Shown here: piece after piece, positions 30,224 to 37,643 of the stretch
Numbering within the stretch: the first letter of the stretch is position 1
Layout: each line of letters opens with the position of its first letter
Virus record (IMG/VR): IMGVR_UViG_3300045391_003842
Location: 32,001-96,000 of that record
Strand: one strand, 5' to 3'
DNA length: 64,000 bases
Source: a virus
Made by a program: the position numbers and the translations under genes
The notes under the pieces: model-generated
Told to the model about the DNA's origin: nothing
Databases searched by the model: none
The model's input: only the letters and a program-made list of their open reading frames with translations

Positions 30224-33200
30224 ATGGAGACACACCTGATGAGATCAGTGGTGACGGTCTATCCGATCGGCTCCCAAGTCTCTGGCGTGCCTTTTGTCGT
30301 TTCGGGAACGATCAACTACTATCCGACGATCGATGTCTCAGACGATGGCGTGAATTTCGATGATGCCAATGTGGGAGGATCGGCGCTGTCCACCTCCACG
30401 TGGCATTTCACGCACCAAGGCATGCCGGTCGGCAACTACACCTTCCGCTTTGAGTCCGGCGACGGATCATCCGGCGTCGTGACGTCCAACCCGTTCGCTG
30501 TCGTCAATCCGCACACCATCACGCCAAACGCGCCAACCGGCGCCGTGGAAGGCGCGCCGTTCATCTTCACCGGCTCGCTGGGCAACTACGCGCAACCGCC
30601 CAACCTCACCGCGGCAATCGACAGCGGCACGCCGTTCGCGCTGTCTGGTGTCAGTGCCAGCGGGTGGAACACCACGCTGACTATCGAGACATCCGGCACC
30701 CACACGCTGACTGTCAGCGATGGCACCTTGTCTACGACCACCGCGGCCTTCAGCGTCGCCGCATCGGGCGTGGCGCCTCCGCCGCCGGTATCCGGCGTGG
30801 TGTGGGATGCAACGCACAAGTCCAGCACCATCGTCCTGTCCAACGGCAGCGGCACGGCGACGTCCAGCGGCACCGGAGCCCAGTCGGTTCTGGCCACCGT
30901 GCCGGTCCCGGCGTCCGGCTTCGCCGCCTGGGAGGTCATCGCGAGCGCGGTCACCACGGATTGGGCGGCTGGCGTGGCCGATCGCAGCTACGCGCTGGAT
31001 TTCGGGGGCGGCCTTGGCGGCGATCAGCACGGCGCCGGCTACTACATAAACAGCCCTCCGGAGGAAACCTGGTACAACGGCACGTTGGTCAACGGCTCCA
31101 GCGGGACCGATTCGACCGGCGCGGCCATCTCGTTCGTCGCGTCCGGCCTGCAACTCTGGGTATCGACGCCGGAAATGCGGGCGAACGGCTTTAACTTCAA
31201 CAATTCGACCACTGCGGACCCGGCAACTGGCGTCGGCGGCATCAACGTCTCCGGAATCGGCCTGCCGTTCTATCCGGCGTTCAACGTGCTGGAGACTGGC
31301 GCGTCGGCGACGATCAACGGCGGGGCAAGCGGGGCGTTCTCGGCCTTCCTGACCACCTACATGGCGGCGCACACCGCGATCAAGGCGCTGGACGGCACGA
31401 TTGTGTCCGGCGGCGGATCGTCTGGCGTGCCGGCGGTTCACACCATAACGCCGGTTTCGCCGGGCACCGTGACGGCCGGGCAGGCGTTCACCTTCCACGG
31501 CACGATCAGCGGCTATGGCGGCACGGCACCGACGCTGCTGTACGAGGTGGACAACGGTTCGCCGGCCCTGGTGTCAGGTGTCACGGCGTCCGGGTGGTCC
31601 ATGACGCTGAACCTGAGCGTCCTGGGATCTCACACCCTGCTGGTGACAGACGGTGCGGTGTCGGGTTCCACCACGGTGGTGGTCCAGGCAGCCTCCGGAA
31701 CCGGCGGCGGCGGAGCCAATGGCATCCCGCGCGTGACGGCGCCGTTGACGGGCACGGTCACCAAAGGCACGTGGCTGCAAAATCAGCGGCTGAACGTCGC
31801 GGCGATGCCTCATGGGTTCATCGCCTACGATCTGTTGCTGCCGGCGCAGTACGATCCGAGCCTCGTCTATCCGATCATGGTCTACGGCCATGAGAATGAC
31901 GAAGGCATGAACGGGGGCTCGTATCCGTCCTCCAATCTGGCGACGGAAAATGGGGCGGTCGGGCCGGGTCTGAGCGCGGACTCGTGTTTCAACACCGTTG
32001 CATTCAGAACGGCGTTCCCCTGCATCGTGGTCGTGCCGTACTGTGACCAATCTCTCGACACCTCCGGTGCCAATCCGAATGCTAACTTTGGCGGCTACGC
32101 GGATACACCGGATAGTGGCGGCAACGAACAGGGCGTGCTGGCGCTGGTGCGGTTCCTGCAATCGACGTACAGTGTGGATGCAACGCGTATCTACATCACA
32201 GGCGACTCGTTGGGCGCGATCGGGGCCTTGGCCCAGATGGTGGACAACAACGCCTATGGTACCGGTACTGTCAACCACGTGTTCGCCGCCGGCATGGGTT
32301 TTTCCGATCAGCTTTACCGGCCGACCATTTCCGGTGGATCGAACAGCCCCGTCATCCAGGCGATGAAGAACGTCCCGTACTTGGCGATCGGCACACCCGA
32401 CGACAACAACGAGGCGATCTACGATCAAGCGGCGTGGCAGGCGTACACGGGCGGCGCTTCCTACCCGACCGCGGCCAACTACACGTCAGGTGGCGTGGCG
32501 GCGCTGAACGCACCCGGCACCCAGTTCTACTATCTGCATGACGCAAACGATGTGCCGTGGAATGACGGCTATCGCCAGTTGGATGCGGACGGCGGCAAGG
32601 GTACCGCGCTTTATACGTGGCTGTTCGACCAGATCGTCAGCGGTGTGTCGGTCGGCACAGTGCCGGCACCGGCCGCCTCGGCTGGGTACCACACGATCAC
32701 CTACGGTCCGACCATCGTGCTGGGTAAAACGGCTGATCCGGTGACCAGTTTCCCTGAGTTCTCGGGTTCGGTGAACTGGGTGCCGTTCACCTTCTATGGC
32801 ACATCGTGGGCTTCGATCGGTGCGGTGCAGAACGCGGACGGCTCTGTCACGTTGGATGGAACCGGCCAGACGTTCGGCAACGGGCTCGCCACGGCCGCGG
32901 CAGGCGACGCCAACCTGACGTCGGATCGTCTGTCCTTCACCGGCACGGCCTTTGGCGGCGGCTTCTACGTTGAAGCTGTCATGAAGGGTGACGGGCCGAT
33001 GTCGTTCTGGGCGAACGATATCGAAACCATGAATGGCGTCTCGGTGAATGCCGGGCCGAATGCATGGGCCGGTCAGGTGTCAGGCTACGGCGATTGGATC
33101 GAAGCGGACATCGCGGAGTTCGACACGACCGGATCGTACGGCATCGCGCTCCACAACTGGTACGGAGCGGTCGGGTCCAACAACGATGTCAACACCGGCT

Positions 33201-35083
33201 TTGCCAAGGTGGCGCCCTCGCCGACGCCTGATTACACGCAGTACCACACCTACGGTGCTCTGTGGGTGCCGGCGACGGTATCGGGGCATGGTTCCTTCAA
33301 GTTCTATTTTGATGGAACGGAAGTTGCGGAGGTAACCTGGGATCAGTTCAATGCTGCGCTGACTCCGCCGCCGACCGCTCAAGCCTCTGTCACGTCGGGA
33401 GTGCCGCAGACGGCTGGCGGCCTGACCGCGTTTGGCGTCATGGACAACCTGCATCTCGCCCTCATCATGGGCGCGGGCAGCGGGAGCACCGTGACGTTCA
33501 AGAGCGTAACGGTCTGGCAGCGGGACGCCTCGAAAAACCTCGCTCCGTCCGGCACGATCATCCCGCCGCCGTCTGGCGAATCGAGAGATGGCACGATCGT
33601 CAATGGTACGACCGGCCAGCTTATCGACAGCCAGAACAACGTCTGGGCGATCAACGCTGGTGGCGTGATCACGGTCAATGGCACGCCGGACAACACTACG
33701 GGCAACGTGCTGCGTCTCGTCTATTCCAACCACACGATCTGGCAGCAGAACGCGGATCTCATGTGGTGGAACAAGACAAGCGCGGGCGCGTCGTGGACGC
33801 CGGCCACCGGCACGTCAACATCGCCGTTGTCCAACGCGGCGCCGTCATCGAACAAGGCCACGATCACGGCGCCGACTGCCACCGTGCTGACGGATGTCTC
33901 GGGCAACGCCTACGGCATCAACAGCGGGCAGGTGATGGTCAACGGCACGGCAGACTCCAGCACGTCCAACGTGGTGGAACTGGCGTATGTCGCGGGCGTC
34001 ATGTGGCAGGAAACCGCGTCCGGCGTCTGGTATGGCAAGTCCAGCCCGACCGCGGCATGGTCCCCATCCGGCGGTACCACGACGTCGCCTTTGGCGTCGG
34101 GCAGCGGCGGTGGCGGAACGCCAACCGGCCAGTTCCATATCAGCGGCGGCAAGATCATCGATCCGAACGGAAAGGTGTTCATCGCGGCCGGTGTCAATAT
34201 CTATGACACGGATCTGGCGGGCGCGATCACGGGACCGGACTGCAATCCCCTGCTGTCCACGTTCCCAGGCTGCAACTTCGTGCGGGTGCCGGTCTACGCG
34301 TACCAAGATCCCTCTTTCTTCGCGCAGCAGATTGCCTGGGCGACGGCGAAAGGGATCGTGATCGAACTCGAAGACCACACCAACACCAGCGGTGGCAACG
34401 CTGGCGGCAATGACCAGGGCGGTGTCATCTTCTCTGGCTCCAGGCTAACCCAGGAACTGAACTGGTATGCGAGTTGCGCGGCCTATTATGCGAACAACCC
34501 GTATGTCTGGTTTGGTACCGACAACGAACCGGCGACGAAAACCAACGCGAGCGGATCTTCGGACCCGAACGCGTTGTCCTCGTGGCAGCAGCAGACCTAC
34601 AATGCTGTGCGCAACGCGGGCTCCGATGCGATCGTGATGATTGAGGCGGTGGGCTGGGATACGCCCCAGTCGTACGGCCAATACATCACACCTTCCTATT
34701 TCACCGGCATGACGAACGCGATTATCGACATGCATGTGTATGGAGAGGCCTATAGCGGCACGACGGCGAGCAACATCGCCAGCGTGATCAACGAGAACAT
34801 CGCGTACATCCAGGGGAACCAAACCTCTGCGGATGGCGTGATGCCAGTGCTGATCGGAGAGTTCGGCAACGCCACGGACGGGCAACACTTCGACTCGAAC
34901 GGCGCGGCGACGGTGACGGCTGTCACCCAGGTGGCCGGTGCCAACTCCGCGGGTTTCGCGGCGTGGAACTGGCAGCCCGGCAACGGCGACATTGACGCTC
35001 TGCGGAACGGCAATGGCAGCCTGACGGACTACGGTCAGCAGATTGCGACGGGCATCGCGGCAGCGGCAGCCAATCGCAGCTAA
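30224..35083 (+). CDS. Large multidomain polysaccharide-degrading protein: Ig-like, SPRY/ConA-like, alpha/beta hydrolase, GH16-like, repeats, GH5
   Basis: Nucleophile elbow RIYITGDSLG. GH16-type EADIAE. GH5 acid/base DNEP, HVY and nucleophile IGEFG. Confidence 0.85.
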   Translation: METHLMRSVVTVYPIGSQVSGVPFVVSGTINYYPTIDVSDDGVNFDDANVGGSALSTSTWHFTHQGMPVGNYTFRFESGDGSSGVVTSNPFAVVNPHTITPNAPTGAVEGAPFIFTGSLGNYAQPPNLTAAIDSGTPFALSGVSASGWNTTLTIETSGTHTLTVSDGTLSTTTAAFSVAASGVAPPPPVSGVVWDATHKSSTIVLSNGSGTATSSGTGAQSVLATVPVPASGFAAWEVIASAVTTDWAAGVADRSYALDFGGGLGGDQHGAGYYINSPPEETWYNGTLVNGSSGTDSTGAAISFVASGLQLWVSTPEMRANGFNFNNSTTADPATGVGGINVSGIGLPFYPAFNVLETGASATINGGASGAFSAFLTTYMAAHTAIKALDGTIVSGGGSSGVPAVHTITPVSPGTVTAGQAFTFHGTISGYGGTAPTLLYEVDNGSPALVSGVTASGWSMTLNLSVLGSHTLLVTDGAVSGSTTVVVQAASGTGGGGANGIPRVTAPLTGTVTKGTWLQNQRLNVAAMPHGFIAYDLLLPAQYDPSLVYPIMVYGHENDEGMNGGSYPSSNLATENGAVGPGLSADSCFNTVAFRTAFPCIVVVPYCDQSLDTSGANPNANFGGYADTPDSGGNEQGVLALVRFLQSTYSVDATRIYITGDSLGAIGALAQMVDNNAYGTGTVNHVFAAGMGFSDQLYRPTISGGSNSPVIQAMKNVPYLAIGTPDDNNEAIYDQAAWQAYTGGASYPTAANYTSGGVAALNAPGTQFYYLHDANDVPWNDGYRQLDADGGKGTALYTWLFDQIVSGVSVGTVPAPAASAGYHTITYGPTIVLGKTADPVTSFPEFSGSVNWVPFTFYGTSWASIGAVQNADGSVTLDGTGQTFGNGLATAAAGDANLTSDRLSFTGTAFGGGFYVEAVMKGDGPMSFWANDIETMNGVSVNAGPNAWAGQVSGYGDWIEADIAEFDTTGSYGIALHNWYGAVGSNNDVNTGFAKVAPSPTPDYTQYHTYGALWVPATVSGHGSFKFYFDGTEVAEVTWDQFNAALTPPPTAQASVTSGVPQTAGGLTAFGVMDNLHLALIMGAGSGSTVTFKSVTVWQRDASKNLAPSGTIIPPPSGESRDGTIVNGTTGQLIDSQNNVWAINAGGVITVNGTPDNTTGNVLRLVYSNHTIWQQNADLMWWNKTSAGASWTPATGTSTSPLSNAAPSSNKATITAPTATVLTDVSGNAYGINSGQVMVNGTADSSTSNVVELAYVAGVMWQETASGVWYGKSSPTAAWSPSGGTTTSPLASGSGGGGTPTGQFHISGGKIIDPNGKVFIAAGVNIYDTDLAGAITGPDCNPLLSTFPGCNFVRVPVYAYQDPSFFAQQIAWATAKGIVIELEDHTNTSGGNAGGNDQGGVIFSGSRLTQELNWYASCAAYYANNPYVWFGTDNEPATKTNASGSSDPNALSSWQQQTYNAVRNAGSDAIVMIEAVGWDTPQSYGQYITPSYFTGMTNAIIDMHVYGEAYSGTTASNIASVINENIAYIQGNQTSADGVMPVLIGEFGNATDGQHFDSNGAATVTAVTQVAGANSAGFAAWNWQPGNGDIDALRNGNGSLTDYGQQIATGIAAAAANRS

Positions 35084-35112
35084 GGCAGAGCGGGAAACCG
35101 CTGGCTAAGGCA

Positions 35113-35149
35113 GGGCGCCAGGGTCTTCGGACTCTGGCGCTTTTTCTTT
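35113..35149 (+). terminator. Intrinsic terminator
   Basis: GGCGCCAGGGTC-TTCG-GACTCTGGCGCT followed by a T-run. Confidence 0.85.
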
Positions 35150-35209: not shown

Positions 35210-35276
35210 TGTCGATAGCGTGAGCCCACGGATACTTCTGGCATGTTGTAAGCCCGTGAGCGATTAAACTTCGACA
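35210..35276 (+). ncRNA. Y-RNA-like unit 1 (short; Ala-GGC-like loop)
   Basis: TGTCGA/TCGACA outer stem, TAGCGT, CACGG/CCGTG inner stem, ATACTTC, TTAAACT. Confidence 0.7.
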
Positions 35277-35284
35277 ACAGTTTT

Positions 35285-35376
35285 CGCTGGATAGCGTAGA
35301 ACTCGGTTGCATCGGTCTGATAAACCGTTACGGGCTTGCGCCCGTGGCACTGCCGGGATCGCCTAACCTTCCGGCG
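35285..35376 (+). ncRNA. Y-RNA-like unit 2 (Ile-GAU anticodon stem-loop)
   Basis: CGCTGGA/TCCGGCG stem, TAGCGT, CTCGG/CCGGG, cggt-CTGATAA-accg hairpin, CCTAACCT. Confidence 0.75.
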
Positions 35377-35385
35377 TTTGAATAT

Positions 35386-35522
35386 GTGGGTAGCGTATGT
35401 AGCGGTTACTTCTCAAAAACTTTGGGTCGGTGGTTCGAATCCACTTCTGTCATCTTCGGGTGGCGGGTAGCTCAGGGGTAGAGCAAAAGTCAAACAAGGT
35501 CCGTTGCAGTCTGATCTCCCAC
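35386..35522 (+). ncRNA. YrlA-type Y RNA unit 3 (permuted tRNA body; Leu-CAA-like loop)
   Basis: Scaffold plus T arm GGTGG-TTCGAAT-CCACT, acceptor stem closed by cUUCGg, then D arm GCTC-AGGGGTA-GAGC. T-before-D order. Confidence 0.88.
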
Positions 35523-35557
35523 TTTTAGTTTGCGTATGGAGGTAGAACACGAAATAC

Positions 35558-35623
35558 ACTGGATAGCGTTAGATTGCGGTTACTTCTTTGGTGAACCACA
35601 CCGTAGTCGATTGATCTTCCGGT
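35558..35623 (+). ncRNA. Y-RNA-like unit 4 (short; Gln-UUG-like loop)
   Basis: ACTGGA/TCCGGT stem, TAGCGT, GATTGCGG/CCGTAGTC, TTACTTC, TTGATCT. Confidence 0.75.
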
Positions 35624-35630
35624 AGTAAAC

Positions 35631-35769
35631 GATGGATAGCGTAGAGAACGGTTACTTCGCATCTGGAGCGCGAGGTCGTTGGTTCGAGTCCAACTCCGTC
35701 CACCTTTCACGGGCGGGTAGCTCAGTCGGTAGAGCGCGTACTGTTACTGTTGTCGCCTGATCTTCCATC
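35631..35769 (+). ncRNA. YrlA-type Y RNA unit 5 (permuted tRNA body; Gln-CUG-like loop)
   Basis: GATGGA/TCCATC stem. AGGTC variable loop, T arm GTTGG-TTCGAGT-CCAAC, closed acceptor TCCGTCC/GGGCGGG, D arm GCTC-AGTCGGTA-GAGC. Confidence 0.88.
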
Positions 35770-35805: not shown

Positions 35806-37182
35806 ATGCGCCTAAACCGAGCCGTCAAGCAGCCGCCGATCGTTACCCATGAGGGTGGTAAGGCCTCTCGTATCAATCTGGTGCAGCAACTGCGCCGGTC
35901 TGTCCTCTCCTGCATGCTGTGGGAGAAGGAATTTTACGAGGATGGCGACACGATCTCTGCGCGGATCCGCAGCCTCATTCCTATGATTTCGCCGGCTGTC
36001 GTGTCGGCCCTGGCGATCGAGGCGCGCACCAAGTTTCATCTGCGTCATATCCCGCTGTTTCTGACCGCGGCGCTGGCGCAGACGGCTGCCGGCACGTCGA
36101 TTGTGTCGGAGACGCTGAACGGTGTCATCCAGCGCGCCGACGAGTTGTCGGAATTTCTGACGATCTACGCGCAGATGAACGGCGTCGCGCCTGACAAGAT
36201 CAAGCCGAAGCTGTCCAATCAGGTGCGCAAGGGCCTCGCGGCGGCCTTCGGCCGATTCGATGAATACCAGTTGGCCAAGTACAACCGCGACGCTGTGATC
36301 AAGTTGCGTGATGTGCTGTTTTTGTGCCACGCCAAGCCGAAGGATATTGCTCAGGCAGCGCTGTGGGAGCGGCTGATCAACGGCAAGATCGCGGTGCCGG
36401 ACACCTGGGAAGTCGCTTTGTCCGGGGGCGCCGACAAGAAGACCACCTGGGAGCGCCTGCTTGGCGCCAACCAGCTTGGTTACCTCGCTCTGTTGCGGAA
36501 CCTCCGCAACATGCAGGAAGTCGGCGTGGACCCGAACCTGATTCGTGAGGCGATCTTGGCGCGTCGGGGCGGTGCTGATCGGGTGTTGCCGTTCCGGTTC
36601 ACCGCGGCGGCTCGAGTCGTGCCGGCGTATGAGCCCGAATTGGATAAGGCCATGATGGCGAACATCATGGCGCTGCCGAGTCTGCCGGGCCGGACGGCGG
36701 TGCTGGTGGACGTCAGCGCCAGCATGGACGAGCGTCTGTCGGCGAAGTCGGATCTGTCTCGGTTGGATGCGGCGGCGACGCTCGCTTCCATGATAAACGC
36801 ACAGGATCGTCGGGTGTTCTCGTTCTCGACACAGGTTGTGGAGGTGGCGCCGCGCCTGGGTATGGCCGGCGTGGATGCGATCCGGACCAGCCAAATTCAC
36901 CATGGCACGCATCTGTTTGATGCGGTGGATCTGATCAATCGGACGGTACCGCATGACCGGCTCATCATCATCACCGATGAGCAGGCGACCGGGGCGGTGG
37001 GTTTTGGCTACCGCCTGGGCGGGACGCTCCGGAGCATGCCGGCGCCGGCTTGTGATCATGGCTACGTGATCAACGTGGCGAGTGCGCTGAACGGCGTTGG
37101 ATATGGTCCCTGGACTCATATCGACGGCTTTTCAGAGCAGGTGTTGCGCTGGATCGCGGAATACGAGGCCGCGGAGGTCTGA
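35806..37182 (+). CDS. rsr: Ro60 / TROVE domain RNA-binding protein
   Basis: THEGGKA, LRRSVLSCMLWEKEFYEDG, RADEL, FDEYQLAKY, LRDVLFLCH, PDTWEVALS, ALLRNLRN, LPFRF. vWA MIDAS DVSASM and IITDEQ. Confidence 0.95.
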   Translation: MRLNRAVKQPPIVTHEGGKASRINLVQQLRRSVLSCMLWEKEFYEDGDTISARIRSLIPMISPAVVSALAIEARTKFHLRHIPLFLTAALAQTAAGTSIVSETLNGVIQRADELSEFLTIYAQMNGVAPDKIKPKLSNQVRKGLAAAFGRFDEYQLAKYNRDAVIKLRDVLFLCHAKPKDIAQAALWERLINGKIAVPDTWEVALSGGADKKTTWERLLGANQLGYLALLRNLRNMQEVGVDPNLIREAILARRGGADRVLPFRFTAAARVVPAYEPELDKAMMANIMALPSLPGRTAVLVDVSASMDERLSAKSDLSRLDAAATLASMINAQDRRVFSFSTQVVEVAPRLGMAGVDAIRTSQIHHGTHLFDAVDLINRTVPHDRLIIITDEQATGAVGFGYRLGGTLRSMPAPACDHGYVINVASALNGVGYGPWTHIDGFSEQVLRWIAEYEAAEV

Positions 37183-37191
37183 GATCCGGTC

Positions 37192-37377
37192 ATGTCACCA
37201 TCTGACCTGATCACCGCTGGCGAGAGGTTATTTGGCGTGCACTGGCGCCAACCTCTCGCCGACTGGTTGGGGGTGAACATATCGACGGTGCGGCGATGGG
37301 CATCGGCCGAGGTAGCGATACCCCGGTCTGTGGCCATCGCCATCACCCTACGGTTGAAACACGAAGGATCGCCTTGA
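37192..37377 (+). CDS. Small HTH DNA-binding protein
   Basis: WRQPLADWLGVNISTVRRWASAEVAIP. Confidence 0.75.
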   Translation: MSPSDLITAGERLFGVHWRQPLADWLGVNISTVRRWASAEVAIPRSVAIAITLRLKHEGSP

Positions 37378-37408
37378 CGCTGCTGGTTGCGGTGCTGATC
37401 ATGGCGGG

Positions 37409-37594
37409 TGGTTGGGGCGCAAGTTCACAAAGCCGGTGGCGTTGGAGGGTTCATGGCACCCGCGGCTTCGAGGGCTTACCTCCGTACTGCGACCGGGACC
37501 AAAGTGGTAGTCAAGCCCGGAAGCGACACCGGATATAACCGGGCGGGAAAGCCGGGCGCTTCGTAAAATGGAGCCGGCAAAGGTAGGTCACCAC
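37409..37594 (+). ncRNA. Candidate ~190-nt structured ncRNA
   Basis: Lies between TTGACG-17-GATCAT and a strong hairpin. Nested helices and no credible ORF. Confidence 0.55.
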
Positions 37595-37598
37595 GCTA

Positions 37599-37643
37599 GA
37601 GAGGGTGCGATGCACTAACCTGCATTGCACCCTTTCATTCTAT
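37599..37643 (+). terminator. Intrinsic terminator
   Basis: GAGAGGGTGCGATGCA...TGCATTGCACCCTTTC. Confidence 0.7.

What the first reader, a model, noticed from the sequence alone, without database searches (positions are those of the whole stretch)
35238..35667. Each array unit displays a different anticodon-loop mimic: a possible tRNA-decoy library
Seen: right at or after the conserved UACUUC, every unit has a 7-mer with the anticodon-loop signature of U at position 33 and a purine at 37. They are CUGGCAU (35238, GGC=Ala), CUGAUAA (35317, GAU=Ile, closed by a cggu/accg stem), CUCAAAA (35412, CAA=Leu), CUUUGGU (35586, UUG=Gln) and AUCUGGA (35661, CUG=Gln, closed by cgc/gcg). In units 3 and 5 the 7-mer sits exactly in tRNA register, followed by a 5-nt anticodon 3' strand, a 5-nt variable loop (GGGUC or AGGUC) and the T arm. 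In unit 3 that strand (ACUUU) pairs with AAAGU after the D arm. The acceptor ends are sealed by a loop, so these RNAs cannot be aminoacylated as transcribed. Known: many anti-phage effectors are anticodon nucleases (PrrC, RloC, VapC-type, PARIS AriB). Inference: Ro60-stabilised RNAs may act as decoys, sensors or guides for tRNA-targeting toxins or modification enzymes, with cargo swapped like spacers. Units 1 and 4 lack a clear closing stem and are the weakest cases.
Basis: partly seen in the sequence, partly recalled or inferred. Interest (0 to 1): 0.88.

Follow-up and report, generated by a model that had tools for sequence, protein, structure and literature searches.

The report
Anticodon-arm mimic in phage Y RNAs
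Two of the five small Y RNAs in front of this phage's Ro60 gene carry a genuine look-alike of a tRNA anticodon arm, a feature shared by about 60 related phage RNAs and so far read as a "variable arm"; the other three 7-mers are chance, and the decoy function is untested.

Summary
The window is a phage record. Bases 35210-35769 hold five tandem Y-RNA units directly upstream of a Ro60 (TROVE+vWA) gene.

All five 7-mers exist; one coordinate is off by one.

- **Unit 5 (AUCUGGA):** a real anticodon-arm mimic. In 60 distinct homologous units the same position has a 7-nt loop with U33 in 56/60, R37 in 60/60 and A38 in 53/60 (2% background), while positions 34-36 vary freely.
- **The stem is composite:** two or three pairs with the strand after the D arm (pair 28'-42 holds in 36/36 units, with all four Watson-Crick types) plus two or three local pairs.
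- **tRNA finders agree:** ARAGORN and GenBank call several such units tRNAs with exactly these anticodons.
- **Unit 2 (CUGAUAA):** a "mini" type that keeps the anticodon-like hairpin but has no T or D arms.
- **Unit 3:** classical YrlA with no anticodon loop.
- **Units 1 and 4:** YrlB-like. Their U33 is only the U after the conserved UACUUC.

So this is not "each unit", and not a spacer-like library within one array. Across phages, though, the anticodon triplet is hypervariable. Decoy function is untested.

The scan has noted phage Ro60/Y-RNA arrays on other DNA before, but not this arm.

The parts
35112..35143 (+). Terminator-like hairpin ending the upstream 1619-aa gene's transcript. The Y-RNA array starts after it.
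   Evidence: 14-bp stem followed by a T run; inverted repeat I3.
35210..35276 (+). Unit 1: short YrlB-like Y RNA. It has an end-closing stem, the 5' box GAUAGCGU, and GGAUACUUC in a ~20-nt apical loop.
   Evidence: Fold; repeat families; relatives of this type show no fixed 7-nt loop.
35285..35376 (+). Unit 2: 'mini' Y RNA, a three-way junction with an anticodon-like hairpin and a GC hairpin. The anticodon-like hairpin is CGGU 35313-16, loop CUGAUAA 35317-23, ACCG 35324-27. The GC hairpin is ACGGGC-UUGC-GCCCGU at 35330-45. There are no T or D arms.
   Evidence: MFE and centroid fold. The same architecture occurs in L020 1277 (CGAU-CUUGUAA-AUCG plus GCC-GAAA-GGC; Ro60 60% identical), and in L028, L030, L044, L102, L017 and L065 with loop CUUGAAA. 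CUGAUAA is also the commonest loop of the full tRNA-like type.
35386..35522 (+). Unit 3: classical YrlA-type permuted tRNA mimic without an anticodon loop. Strand ACUUU 35419-23 pairs 5/5 with AAAGU 35486-90. Other elements: variable loop GGGUC 35424-28, T arm 35429-45, sealed acceptor with a UUCG cap, D arm 35470-84.
   Evidence: Rfam YrlA 30.2 bits; model R1 65 bits; pair counts; relatives of this type.
35558..35623 (+). Unit 4: short YrlB-like Y RNA. After UACUUC there is a 3-bp UUC/GAA mini-hairpin with a 6-nt loop.
   Evidence: Fold. Relatives share a ...UGGU(A/G)... motif with loops of 3-10 nt.
35631..35769 (+). Unit 5: YrlA-type permuted tRNA mimic with a complete anticodon-arm mimic ('class H').
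   Evidence: Model R1 94.8 bits (this unit was in the training set); Rfam YrlA 31.9 bits and Rfam tRNA 27 bits on its 5' half; the same architecture in 60 units.
35656..35677 (+). Anticodon-arm mimic of unit 5. Its 5' strand is UUCGC 35656-60 (the end of the conserved UACUUC plus GC). The loop is A32-U33-C34-U35-G36-G37-A38 at 35661-67. Its 3' strand is GCGCG 35668-72, followed by the variable loop AGGUC 35673-77.
   Evidence: Counted back from the T stem in tRNA register. The loop is identical in L022 and in Caulobacter phage CcrColossus, where GenBank annotates it as tRNA-Gln.
35736..35739 (+). G26, then CGU (tRNA positions 27'-29') directly after the D arm of unit 5. CGU pairs with GCG 35670-72 (positions 41-43) and forms the base of the composite anticodon stem.
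   Evidence: Covariation in 36 units: 28'-42 paired 36/36 (GC14 AU10 CG8 UA4) and 27'-43 paired 35/36. Partner columns slid by 1-3 give 22-48% paired cells against 96.8%.
35678..35735 (+). tRNA-like core of unit 5: T arm 35678-94; acceptor 3' strand UCCGUCC 35695-701; cap 35702-10; acceptor 5' strand GGGCGGG 35711-17; U8-A9; D arm 35720-35.
   Evidence: T, acceptor and D helices covary.
35806..37182 (+). Ro60 (TROVE plus vWA) gene, the presumed protein partner of all five RNAs. No terminator lies between the array and this gene.
   Evidence: Pfam TROVE E=6e-19; PHROG 850 'RNA-binding protein' E=5e-46.

Best explanation
The stretch is part of a five-unit Y-RNA array co-transcribed with a phage Ro60 gene.

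Unit 5 is a YrlA-type, circularly permuted tRNA mimic. Unlike the crystallised Salmonella YrlA, it keeps a whole anticodon arm:
- Two or three base pairs form between positions 41-43 and the strand that follows the D arm (tRNA positions 27-29).
- These stack on two or three local pairs made by the end of the conserved UACUUC motif.
- A 7-nt loop N-U33-NNN-R37-A38 closes the arm.
- The Ro60-binding stem is a side branch entering through the break in the 5' strand of this stem.

Unit 2 keeps only such a hairpin. Units 1, 3 and 4 have no anticodon-loop mimic.

Shown: the anatomy, its conservation, the covariation, and the hypervariable 'anticodon' between phages.

Inferred: the arm is kept by selection because the tRNA-like module is the effector-binding end of the Y RNA. 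Here it lets Ro60 be joined to, or compete for, host proteins that read the anticodon arm (modification enzymes, synthetases, anticodon nucleases). Which protein this is remains unknown.
For: - The window is a virus record. The Ro60 gene is identified.
- Unit anatomy.
- Loop signature in 36 and then 60 distinct units from IMG/VR, metagenome, genome and GenBank phage loci: U33 56/60, R37 60/60, A38 53/60, positions 34-36 near zero information, loop of 7 nt in 26/28 hairpin-type hits. Background for the triple signature is 2%.
- Covariation: 28'-42 paired 36/36 with four Watson-Crick types; local pairs 30-40 and 31-39 use CG/GC/AU/UA; a composite 5-bp stem is present in 35/36 units.
- The hairpin is followed by a 5-nt variable loop (A/G)GGUC, the standard short tRNA length and unlike the 1-2 nt that follow a long variable arm (that comparison rests on my own knowledge).
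- Independent tRNA finders read the same anticodons. ARAGORN does so on 9 units. GenBank has tRNA-Gln in CcrColossus, tRNA-Ser in Gurke and tRNA-Arg(tct) in Gordonia phage VanLee.
- 12/60 loops are identical to the loops of real tRNA genes in neighbouring clusters, against 4.7 expected.
- In the same RNAs the acceptor is capped mostly by GNRA or UUCG tetraloops (17 of 36), whereas this loop stays at 7 nt.
Against: - RNAalifold on the MAFFT alignment predicts the T, acceptor and D helices but not the short anticodon helices.
- The RNAfold MFE of unit 5 prefers a 7-bp ACUUCGC/GCGAGGU hairpin with a 9-nt loop.
- Class H was selected on pairs 30-40 and 31-39, so those two pairs are not an unbiased test.
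- The units are related by descent and their tree is poorly resolved. The 36-37 coupling (UA 28, GG 19) rests on only 2-5 independent contrasts.
- There is no RNA, probing, modification or binding datum for any of these RNAs.
- The published model calls the hairpin a variable arm (PMC4201824).
Confidence: 0.7

Rival explanations
1. The anticodon-like loops are decoys, sensors or guides for tRNA-targeting toxins (anticodon nucleases of host defence systems) or for modification enzymes. Ro60 stabilises them, and the triplet changes in an arms race.
For: - The element is phage-encoded.
- Full tRNA mimicry, including the anticodon loop, is conserved while the triplet changes on almost every branch: 30 changes on a 43-tip tree against 4 for U33.
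- Some loops equal real tRNA loops.
- A phage Ro60-like protein (Bas63 gp130) was reported to counter the Ppl defence system (PMC11482910).
- The Salmonella rsr-yrlBA-rtcBA operon is induced by anticodon-loop-nicked tRNAs (PMC7790460, PMC10159003).
Against: - Only one or two units per array carry such a loop.
- The commonest triplets (GAU, GCU, UGG, UGU, CUG) are not the classical PrrC/PARIS target Lys-UUU, which occurs in 1/60 units (the target list is from my own knowledge).
- Free variation at positions 34-36 is equally what neutral drift predicts.
- There is no RNA-repair gene in the record.
- There are no cleavage or protection data.
Confidence: 0.15
2. Relic plus scaffold. The arm is what is left of the first tRNA of an ancestral tRNA dimer (the Sim and Wolin model cited in 10.1101/312249). 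It is kept only as a stable three-way-junction element. U33/R37/A38 persist because the U-turn loop folds well, not because anything reads it.
For: - The 5' half of unit 5 scores 27 bits with the Rfam tRNA model.
- Y-RNA arrays often adjoin real tRNA clusters.
- Positions 34-36 carry almost no information.
- Other lineages replace the arm by nothing (class T), and some acidobacterial units replace it by a GCAA-capped hairpin.
Against: - The 7-nt loop and its signature persist from alphaproteobacterial phages to actinophages whose Ro60 is only 26% identical. Over the same span the T stems and acceptor caps turn over completely.
- The same RNAs use tetraloops where only stability is needed.
- The 36-37 dinucleotide follows the tRNA rule (UA, GG, AA, CA in 57/60).
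- 'Mini' units keep the hairpin after losing the tRNA core.
Confidence: 0.25
3. The published topology. The hairpin upstream of the T arm is a long variable arm ('V'), and the helix leading to the Ro60 module is the anticodon-stem equivalent, so there is no anticodon-arm mimic.
For: Chen et al. 2014 (PMC4201824) drew most YrlA RNAs this way, with YUAY beginning the V loop. The Salmonella YrlA crystal structure has no anticodon loop (10.1101/312249).
Against: - The two or three nucleotides right after N26 covary with positions 41-43, not with the strand 5' of YUAY.
- Six to nine nucleotides separate the D arm from the Ro60-proximal helix.
- Five nucleotides (A/G)GGUC follow the hairpin, and the stem-plus-loop geometry is 5 bp plus 7 nt.
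- tRNA finders accept it as an anticodon arm.
Confidence: 0.1
4. The 5' halves are working tRNA genes that are cut out of the precursor, as annotated in some GenBank records.
For: ARAGORN and GenBank make tRNA calls in relatives. The stretch GAUGGA 35631-36 can pair with UCCGUC 35695-700.
Against: - In the window ARAGORN finds nothing and Rfam tRNA stays below threshold (27 against 29 bits).
- The 'D arm' is the conserved Ro60 box and cannot form a D stem.
- The acceptor 3' strand pairs better (7/7) with the next strand, giving the sealed YrlA fold.
- The same 5' box occurs in all five units.
Confidence: 0.03

Closest known systems
YrlA Y RNA of Salmonella Typhimurium (Rfam RF02553; crystal structure 6CU1, 10.1101/312249)
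   Same: - Encoded next to Ro60 on the same strand.
- Permuted order: T arm, sealed acceptor, D arm.
- YUAY motif present (here UUAC).
- A stem made from the two ends carries the Ro60 box.
- Window unit 3 has this topology, with a 5-bp stem under the D arm that runs on towards the Ro60 module.
   Different: - Unit 5 and its 60 relatives add a closed 7-nt anticodon-like loop. The Ro60 stem is a side branch of the anticodon stem, not its continuation.
- The Rfam model scores only 30-32 bits against a gathering score of 69.
- The Ro60 box is AGCGUAGAG rather than GNCGAA.
YrlA RNAs with a 'V' stem-loop (Chen et al. 2014, PMC4201824; includes mycobacteriophages and Caulobacter phage CcrColossus)
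   Same: [quoted passage not shown] CcrColossus carries the same AUCUGGA loop as window unit 5.
   Different: That paper assigns the hairpin to the tRNA variable arm. The evidence here assigns it to the anticodon arm: register, loop signature, the 28'-42 covariation and tRNA-finder calls. I could not see their figures or supplements.
Genuine tRNA anticodon stem-loop
   Same: - 5-bp stem and 7-nt loop.
- Position 32 is mostly C or U; U33; R37; A38.
- 36-37 is mostly UA, GG, AA or CA.
- A 5-nt variable loop and then the T arm follow.
- Several 7-mers are identical to real loops (UUUGGGA, UUUGUAA, CUGUUAA, CUUUUAA).
   Different: - The 5' strand of the stem comes from two separate chain segments.
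- A32 occurs in 14/60 units.
- The acceptor is sealed, so the RNA cannot be charged as transcribed.
Other tRNA mimics with an anticodon-domain equivalent (TYMV TLS, tmRNA-SmpB), as compared in 10.1101/312249
   Same: An L-shaped mimic that also imitates the anticodon end.
   Different: Those have free CCA ends and are aminoacylated. These RNAs are sealed and are tied to Ro60.
Phage tRNA strategies against tRNA-targeting defence (for example a phage tRNA-Lys that escapes PARIS; review PMC11455837)
   Same: A phage-encoded tRNA-shaped RNA that could interface with anticodon nucleases.
   Different: Those are working replacement tRNAs. A non-chargeable, Ro60-bound mimic acting as a decoy has not been described in the library I could search.

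Membership tests
YrlA / bacterial and phage Y RNAs (RF02553) | Encoded within about 4 kb of a Ro60 (TROVE) gene on the same strand | tested here: met
   The array at 35210-35769 lies directly upstream of the TROVE+vWA gene at 35806-37182.
YrlA / bacterial and phage Y RNAs (RF02553) | Permuted tRNA-like domain: T arm, closed acceptor-like stem, D arm | tested here: met
   Present in units 3 and 5 only. Units 1, 2 and 4 lack it and are YrlB-like or 'mini'.
YrlA / bacterial and phage Y RNAs (RF02553) | Rfam gathering score (69 bits) | tested here: not met
   31.9 and 30.2 bits, E = 8e-5 and 2e-4. This is a divergent subfamily.
YrlA / bacterial and phage Y RNAs (RF02553) | 5' motif GNCGAAN0-1G and the YUAY motif | tested here: inconclusive
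   YUAY is present as UUAC in units 3-5. The 5' box is AGCGU(A/U)AG in the window and GGCGAAG/GGCGUAG/GGUGAAG in relatives.
YrlA / bacterial and phage Y RNAs (RF02553) | Bound by Ro60 | not testable with these tools
   Needs RIP or EMSA.
tRNA anticodon stem-loop (structural motif) | 5-bp stem, 7-nt loop, U33, purine 37, in register with the variable loop and T arm | tested here: met
   - Unit 5 and 60 relatives meet it.
- Unit 2 has a 4-bp stem and a 7-nt loop but no T arm.
- Units 1, 3 and 4 do not meet it.
tRNA (RF00005) | Cloverleaf with free acceptor ends, above the detection thresholds | tested here: not met
   ARAGORN finds none in the window or in the whole 115.8-kb record. Rfam tRNA gives 27 bits against a gathering score of 29.
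Permuted tRNA genes (Cyanidioschyzon type) | The 3' half lies upstream of the 5' half, with processing through a circular intermediate to a working tRNA | not tested
   The order of the halves is similar, but no processing signal was looked for and no RNA data exist. The acceptor caps are stable tetraloops in 17 of 36 relatives.
Anti-defence tRNA decoy | Binding to, or cleavage by, a tRNA-targeting effector, with protection of the phage | not testable with these tools
   No such family is defined. This needs bench tests.

The most novel reading that the evidence does not exclude
Phage Ro60 particles display a complete, non-chargeable tRNA mimic. Its 'anticodon' evolves fast between phages and serves as bait for host proteins that read the anticodon loop. 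These could be anticodon nucleases of defence systems or anticodon-loop modification enzymes. Under this reading the Ro60/Y-RNA array would be a tRNA-directed counter-defence or host-takeover module.
Probability: 0.15. Interest if true: 0.85.

Novelty: new variant of a known kind. Interest (0 to 1): 0.6.

Why it matters
Which proteins the tRNA-like end of bacterial and phage Y RNAs recruits is an open question. The only solved example has no anticodon loop.

A widespread subclass keeps a full anticodon arm, with the loop signature conserved and the triplet free to change. That narrows the candidate partners to proteins that read the anticodon end of a tRNA.

It gives direct experiments in culturable phages: CcrColossus on Caulobacter, the Xanthomonas 43-kb phages, and Gordonia phage VanLee.

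It also flags annotation errors. Some 'tRNA-Gln/Ser/Arg' genes next to phage Ro60 genes are halves of Y RNAs.

Tried and rejected
- **Rfam at gathering thresholds:** nothing.
- **ARAGORN on the window and the whole record:** no tRNA.
- **Energy-based folds (RNAalifold and single-sequence MFE):** they do not recover the short anticodon helices, so the structure rests on covariation and register.
- **Pairing of the loop with another part of the same RNA:** 4- and 5-mer complements occur at chance level. Rejected.
- **Phylogenetically independent test of the 36-37 coupling:** the unit tree is too poorly resolved, giving 2-5 contrasts. Suggestive only.
- **Reverse-strand control for loop signatures:** unusable, because the reverse complement of the T loop gives the same signature.
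- **RNA-repair partners in the record:** no RtcB (PF01139) or RNA ligase (PF09414).
- **Papers not held:** Sim and Wolin 2018 and Sim et al. 2020. The supplements of Chen et al. 2014 are not held either. I therefore cannot exclude that the anticodon-arm reading is in print there.
Full report
**What is there**

The window belongs to a virus record of 115,788 bases. A terminator-like hairpin lies at 35112-35143, and a TROVE+vWA (Ro60) gene at 35806-37182. Between them are five tandem units:
- unit 1, 35210-35276
- unit 2, 35285-35376
- unit 3, 35386-35522
- unit 4, 35558-35623
- unit 5, 35631-35769

Each unit is closed by pairing of its two ends. Each carries a 5' box G(A/G)UAGCGU, the motif GG(U/A)UACUUC (UUGC in unit 2) and a 3' box ...UGAUCU(U/C)CC.

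Units 3 and 5 contain a permuted tRNA-like core: variable loop, T arm, sealed acceptor, D arm. They match Rfam YrlA below threshold, at 30-32 bits against a gathering score of 69. ARAGORN finds no tRNA in the window or the whole record.

This is the known design of bacterial and phage Y RNAs next to Ro60 (PMC4201824). The crystallised Salmonella YrlA 'lacks the anticodon loop' (10.1101/312249).

**Checking the observation**

The five 7-mers are present; the fourth starts at 35585, not 35586.

Within the window the evidence is weak. 14% of all 7-mers in the array have U at position 2 and a purine at position 6. In units 1, 3 and 4 the 7-mer begins with the last C of the conserved UACUUC followed by U.

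**Homologues**

The Ro60 protein retrieved 19 IMG/VR loci, 77 metagenome loci and 12 genome loci, at 37-60% identity. It also matched 91 GenBank phages, including Caulobacter and Brevundimonas jumbo phages, 43-kb Xanthomonas phages, Rhizobium phages and actinophages. Nearly all carry units with GGYUACUUC upstream of Ro60.

A scan anchored only on a T arm followed by a D arm gave 60 distinct tRNA-like units. Counting back from the T stem in tRNA register (5-nt variable loop, 5 nt, 7 nt, 5 nt) splits them into two types.

- **Class T (12 units, including window unit 3).** Positions 39-43 pair 4-5/5 with the five nucleotides after N26. There is no closed loop, the distance from UACUUC varies (0 to about 8 nt), and U33 is not kept.
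- **Class H (36 units, including window unit 5).** Positions 30-40 and 31-39 pair locally and close a 7-nt loop.

**The loop in class H**

A covariance model built from class H (R1) found 18 more units outside the training set. In the combined 60 units:

| Position | Content |
|---|---|
| 32 | C30 / U16 / A14 |
| 33 | U in 56/60 |
| 34-36 | 0.02-0.32 bits of information; 24 different triplets |
| 37 | purine in 60/60 |
| 38 | A in 53/60 |

The triple signature U33+R37+A38 holds in 50/60 units, against 2% of 7-mers in the window. The loop is 7 nt in 26 of 28 hairpin-type hits. The 36-37 dinucleotide is UA (28), GG (19), AA (6) or CA (4) in 57/60, the pattern of real tRNAs. Only 2-5 phylogenetically independent contrasts support this coupling.

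Twelve loops are identical to the loops of real tRNA genes lying in neighbouring clusters (UUUGGGA, UUUGUAA, CUUGUAA, CUGUUAA, CUUUUAA, CUCUUAA). Column shuffling predicts 4.7.

Window unit 5's loop AUCUGGA recurs with the same stem in L022 and in phage CcrColossus, where the T stems and acceptor caps differ.

**The stem**

Pair 28'-42 joins the second nucleotide after N26 to the second nucleotide before the variable loop. It is formed in 36/36 units with GC14, AU10, CG8 and UA4. Pair 27'-43 is formed in 35/36. Position 41 pairs either with 29' (23/36) or with the local position 29 (26/36). The local pairs 30-40 and 31-39 use CG, GC, AU and UA.

A 5-bp composite stem results in 35/36 units. 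The pair-counting tool gives 96.8% paired cells against 79.8% in shuffles and 22-48% with slid partners.

So the anticodon stem is built from two chain segments. The Ro60-binding stem enters through the break in its 5' strand, and the conserved (A)CUUC is the local 5' strand.

This fits the tRNA-dimer origin proposed for YrlA (cited in 10.1101/312249). The 5' half of unit 5 scores 27 bits as a tRNA.

ARAGORN relatives' 5' halves tRNAs with exactly the anticodons read here. GenBank annotates tRNA-Gln in CcrColossus, tRNA-Ser in Gurke and tRNA-Arg(tct) in Gordonia phage VanLee at such units.

Chen et al. [quoted passage not shown] The register, the 5-nt (A/G)GGUC that follows, and the 28'-42 covariation argue for an anticodon arm instead.

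Against this, energy-based predictions do not recover these short helices.

**The other units**

Unit 2 has no T or D arm. It folds into CGGU-CUGAUAA-ACCG plus a GC hairpin. The same 'mini' design recurs: L020, the closest Ro60 relative, has CGAU-CUUGUAA-AUCG plus GCC-GAAA-GGC, and six other loci have CUUGAAA loops.

Among 115 units without a T arm, 66 have a hairpin using the UUC of UACUUC. Loop lengths run from 3 to 10 nt with 7 the commonest (20 units), and 18 of those 20 have U33 and R37.

Units 1 and 4 are not of this kind. Unit 1 has a roughly 20-nt open loop. Unit 4 has a 3-bp stem and a 6-nt loop, and its relatives have variable loop length.

**Function**

Nothing here tests function.

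In favour of a selected role:
- The 7-nt loop persists as far as actinophages whose Ro60 is 26% identical.
- The same RNAs cap the acceptor with GNRA or UUCG tetraloops.
- Mini units keep the hairpin after losing the tRNA core.
- The loop has no partner inside its own RNA.

In favour of drift: positions 34-36 are essentially free.

The record has no RtcB, no Rnl2-type ligase and no tRNA gene.

The literature held shows phage Ro60/Y RNA binding host PNPase (PMC12135203). A Ro60-like phage protein counters the Ppl defence system (PMC11482910). The Salmonella rsr-yrl-rtc operon is linked to anticodon-nicked tRNAs (PMC7790460).

I take the arm to be part of the effector-binding end of the Y RNA, read by a host protein that needs the anticodon end of a tRNA. 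The decoy idea is one version of this, at about 15%.

**Verdict**

This is a new variant of a known kind.

I found no description of an anticodon arm in YrlA in the searchable literature, but two reviews and the 2014 supplements were not available.

Earlier notes of this scan record phage Ro60/Y-RNA arrays on other DNA, none of them with this arm.

Noticed in passing
L109 (JX100810.1 109217-109284), L111 (ON529850.1 157691-157765), L117 (MZ028627.1 65454-65525): Three GenBank annotations look like the 5' halves of Ro60-associated Y RNAs rather than tRNA genes: 'tRNA-Gln' in CcrColossus, 'tRNA-Ser' in Brevundimonas phage Gurke and 'tRNA-Arg(tct)' in Gordonia phage VanLee. Each is preceded by the Ro60 box and followed by a sealed acceptor and a D arm.
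   Followed up: partly
L020:1172-1247: In the locus with the closest Ro60 (60% identity), a proper cloverleaf tRNA-Ile(GAU) sits between Y-RNA units. Its loop reads CCGAUAA, with C rather than U at position 33.
   Followed up: no
L023/L097 70-1082; L025/L099 119-602; L011/L037: Y-RNA arrays often lie directly after clusters of real tRNA genes. L025 holds both a real tRNA-Arg(ACG) with loop CUACGAA and a Y-RNA mimic with loop CUACGGA.
   Followed up: partly
L050:1279-1423, L066:582-707, L068:83-206, L069:830-985, L070:1279-1392: In these mostly acidobacterial loci, UACUUC is followed by (A)GUGGUAGAGCGCCGC..GCAA... This looks like a D-arm remnant plus a tetraloop-capped stem. It suggests that UACUUC descends from U8-A9-G10-C11-U12-C13 of the first tRNA of a dimer, and that this lineage lost the 7-nt loop.
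   Followed up: no
window 30224-35083 (+): A 1619-aa ORF ends just before the array. It has no PHROG hit.
   Followed up: no
window 37374-37636 (+): A promoter-like site lies at 37374-37402 and a 16-bp terminator-like hairpin at 37599-37636. They enclose an ORF-poor stretch downstream of Ro60 that could be another small RNA.
   Followed up: no
window 35695-35705: In unit 5 the acceptor 3' strand UCCGUCC is followed by A-C-C, like a discriminator plus CC, before the cap loop. CcrColossus has ...CCACCACCA at the same place. This is probably a trace of the 3' end of the first tRNA.
   Followed up: no
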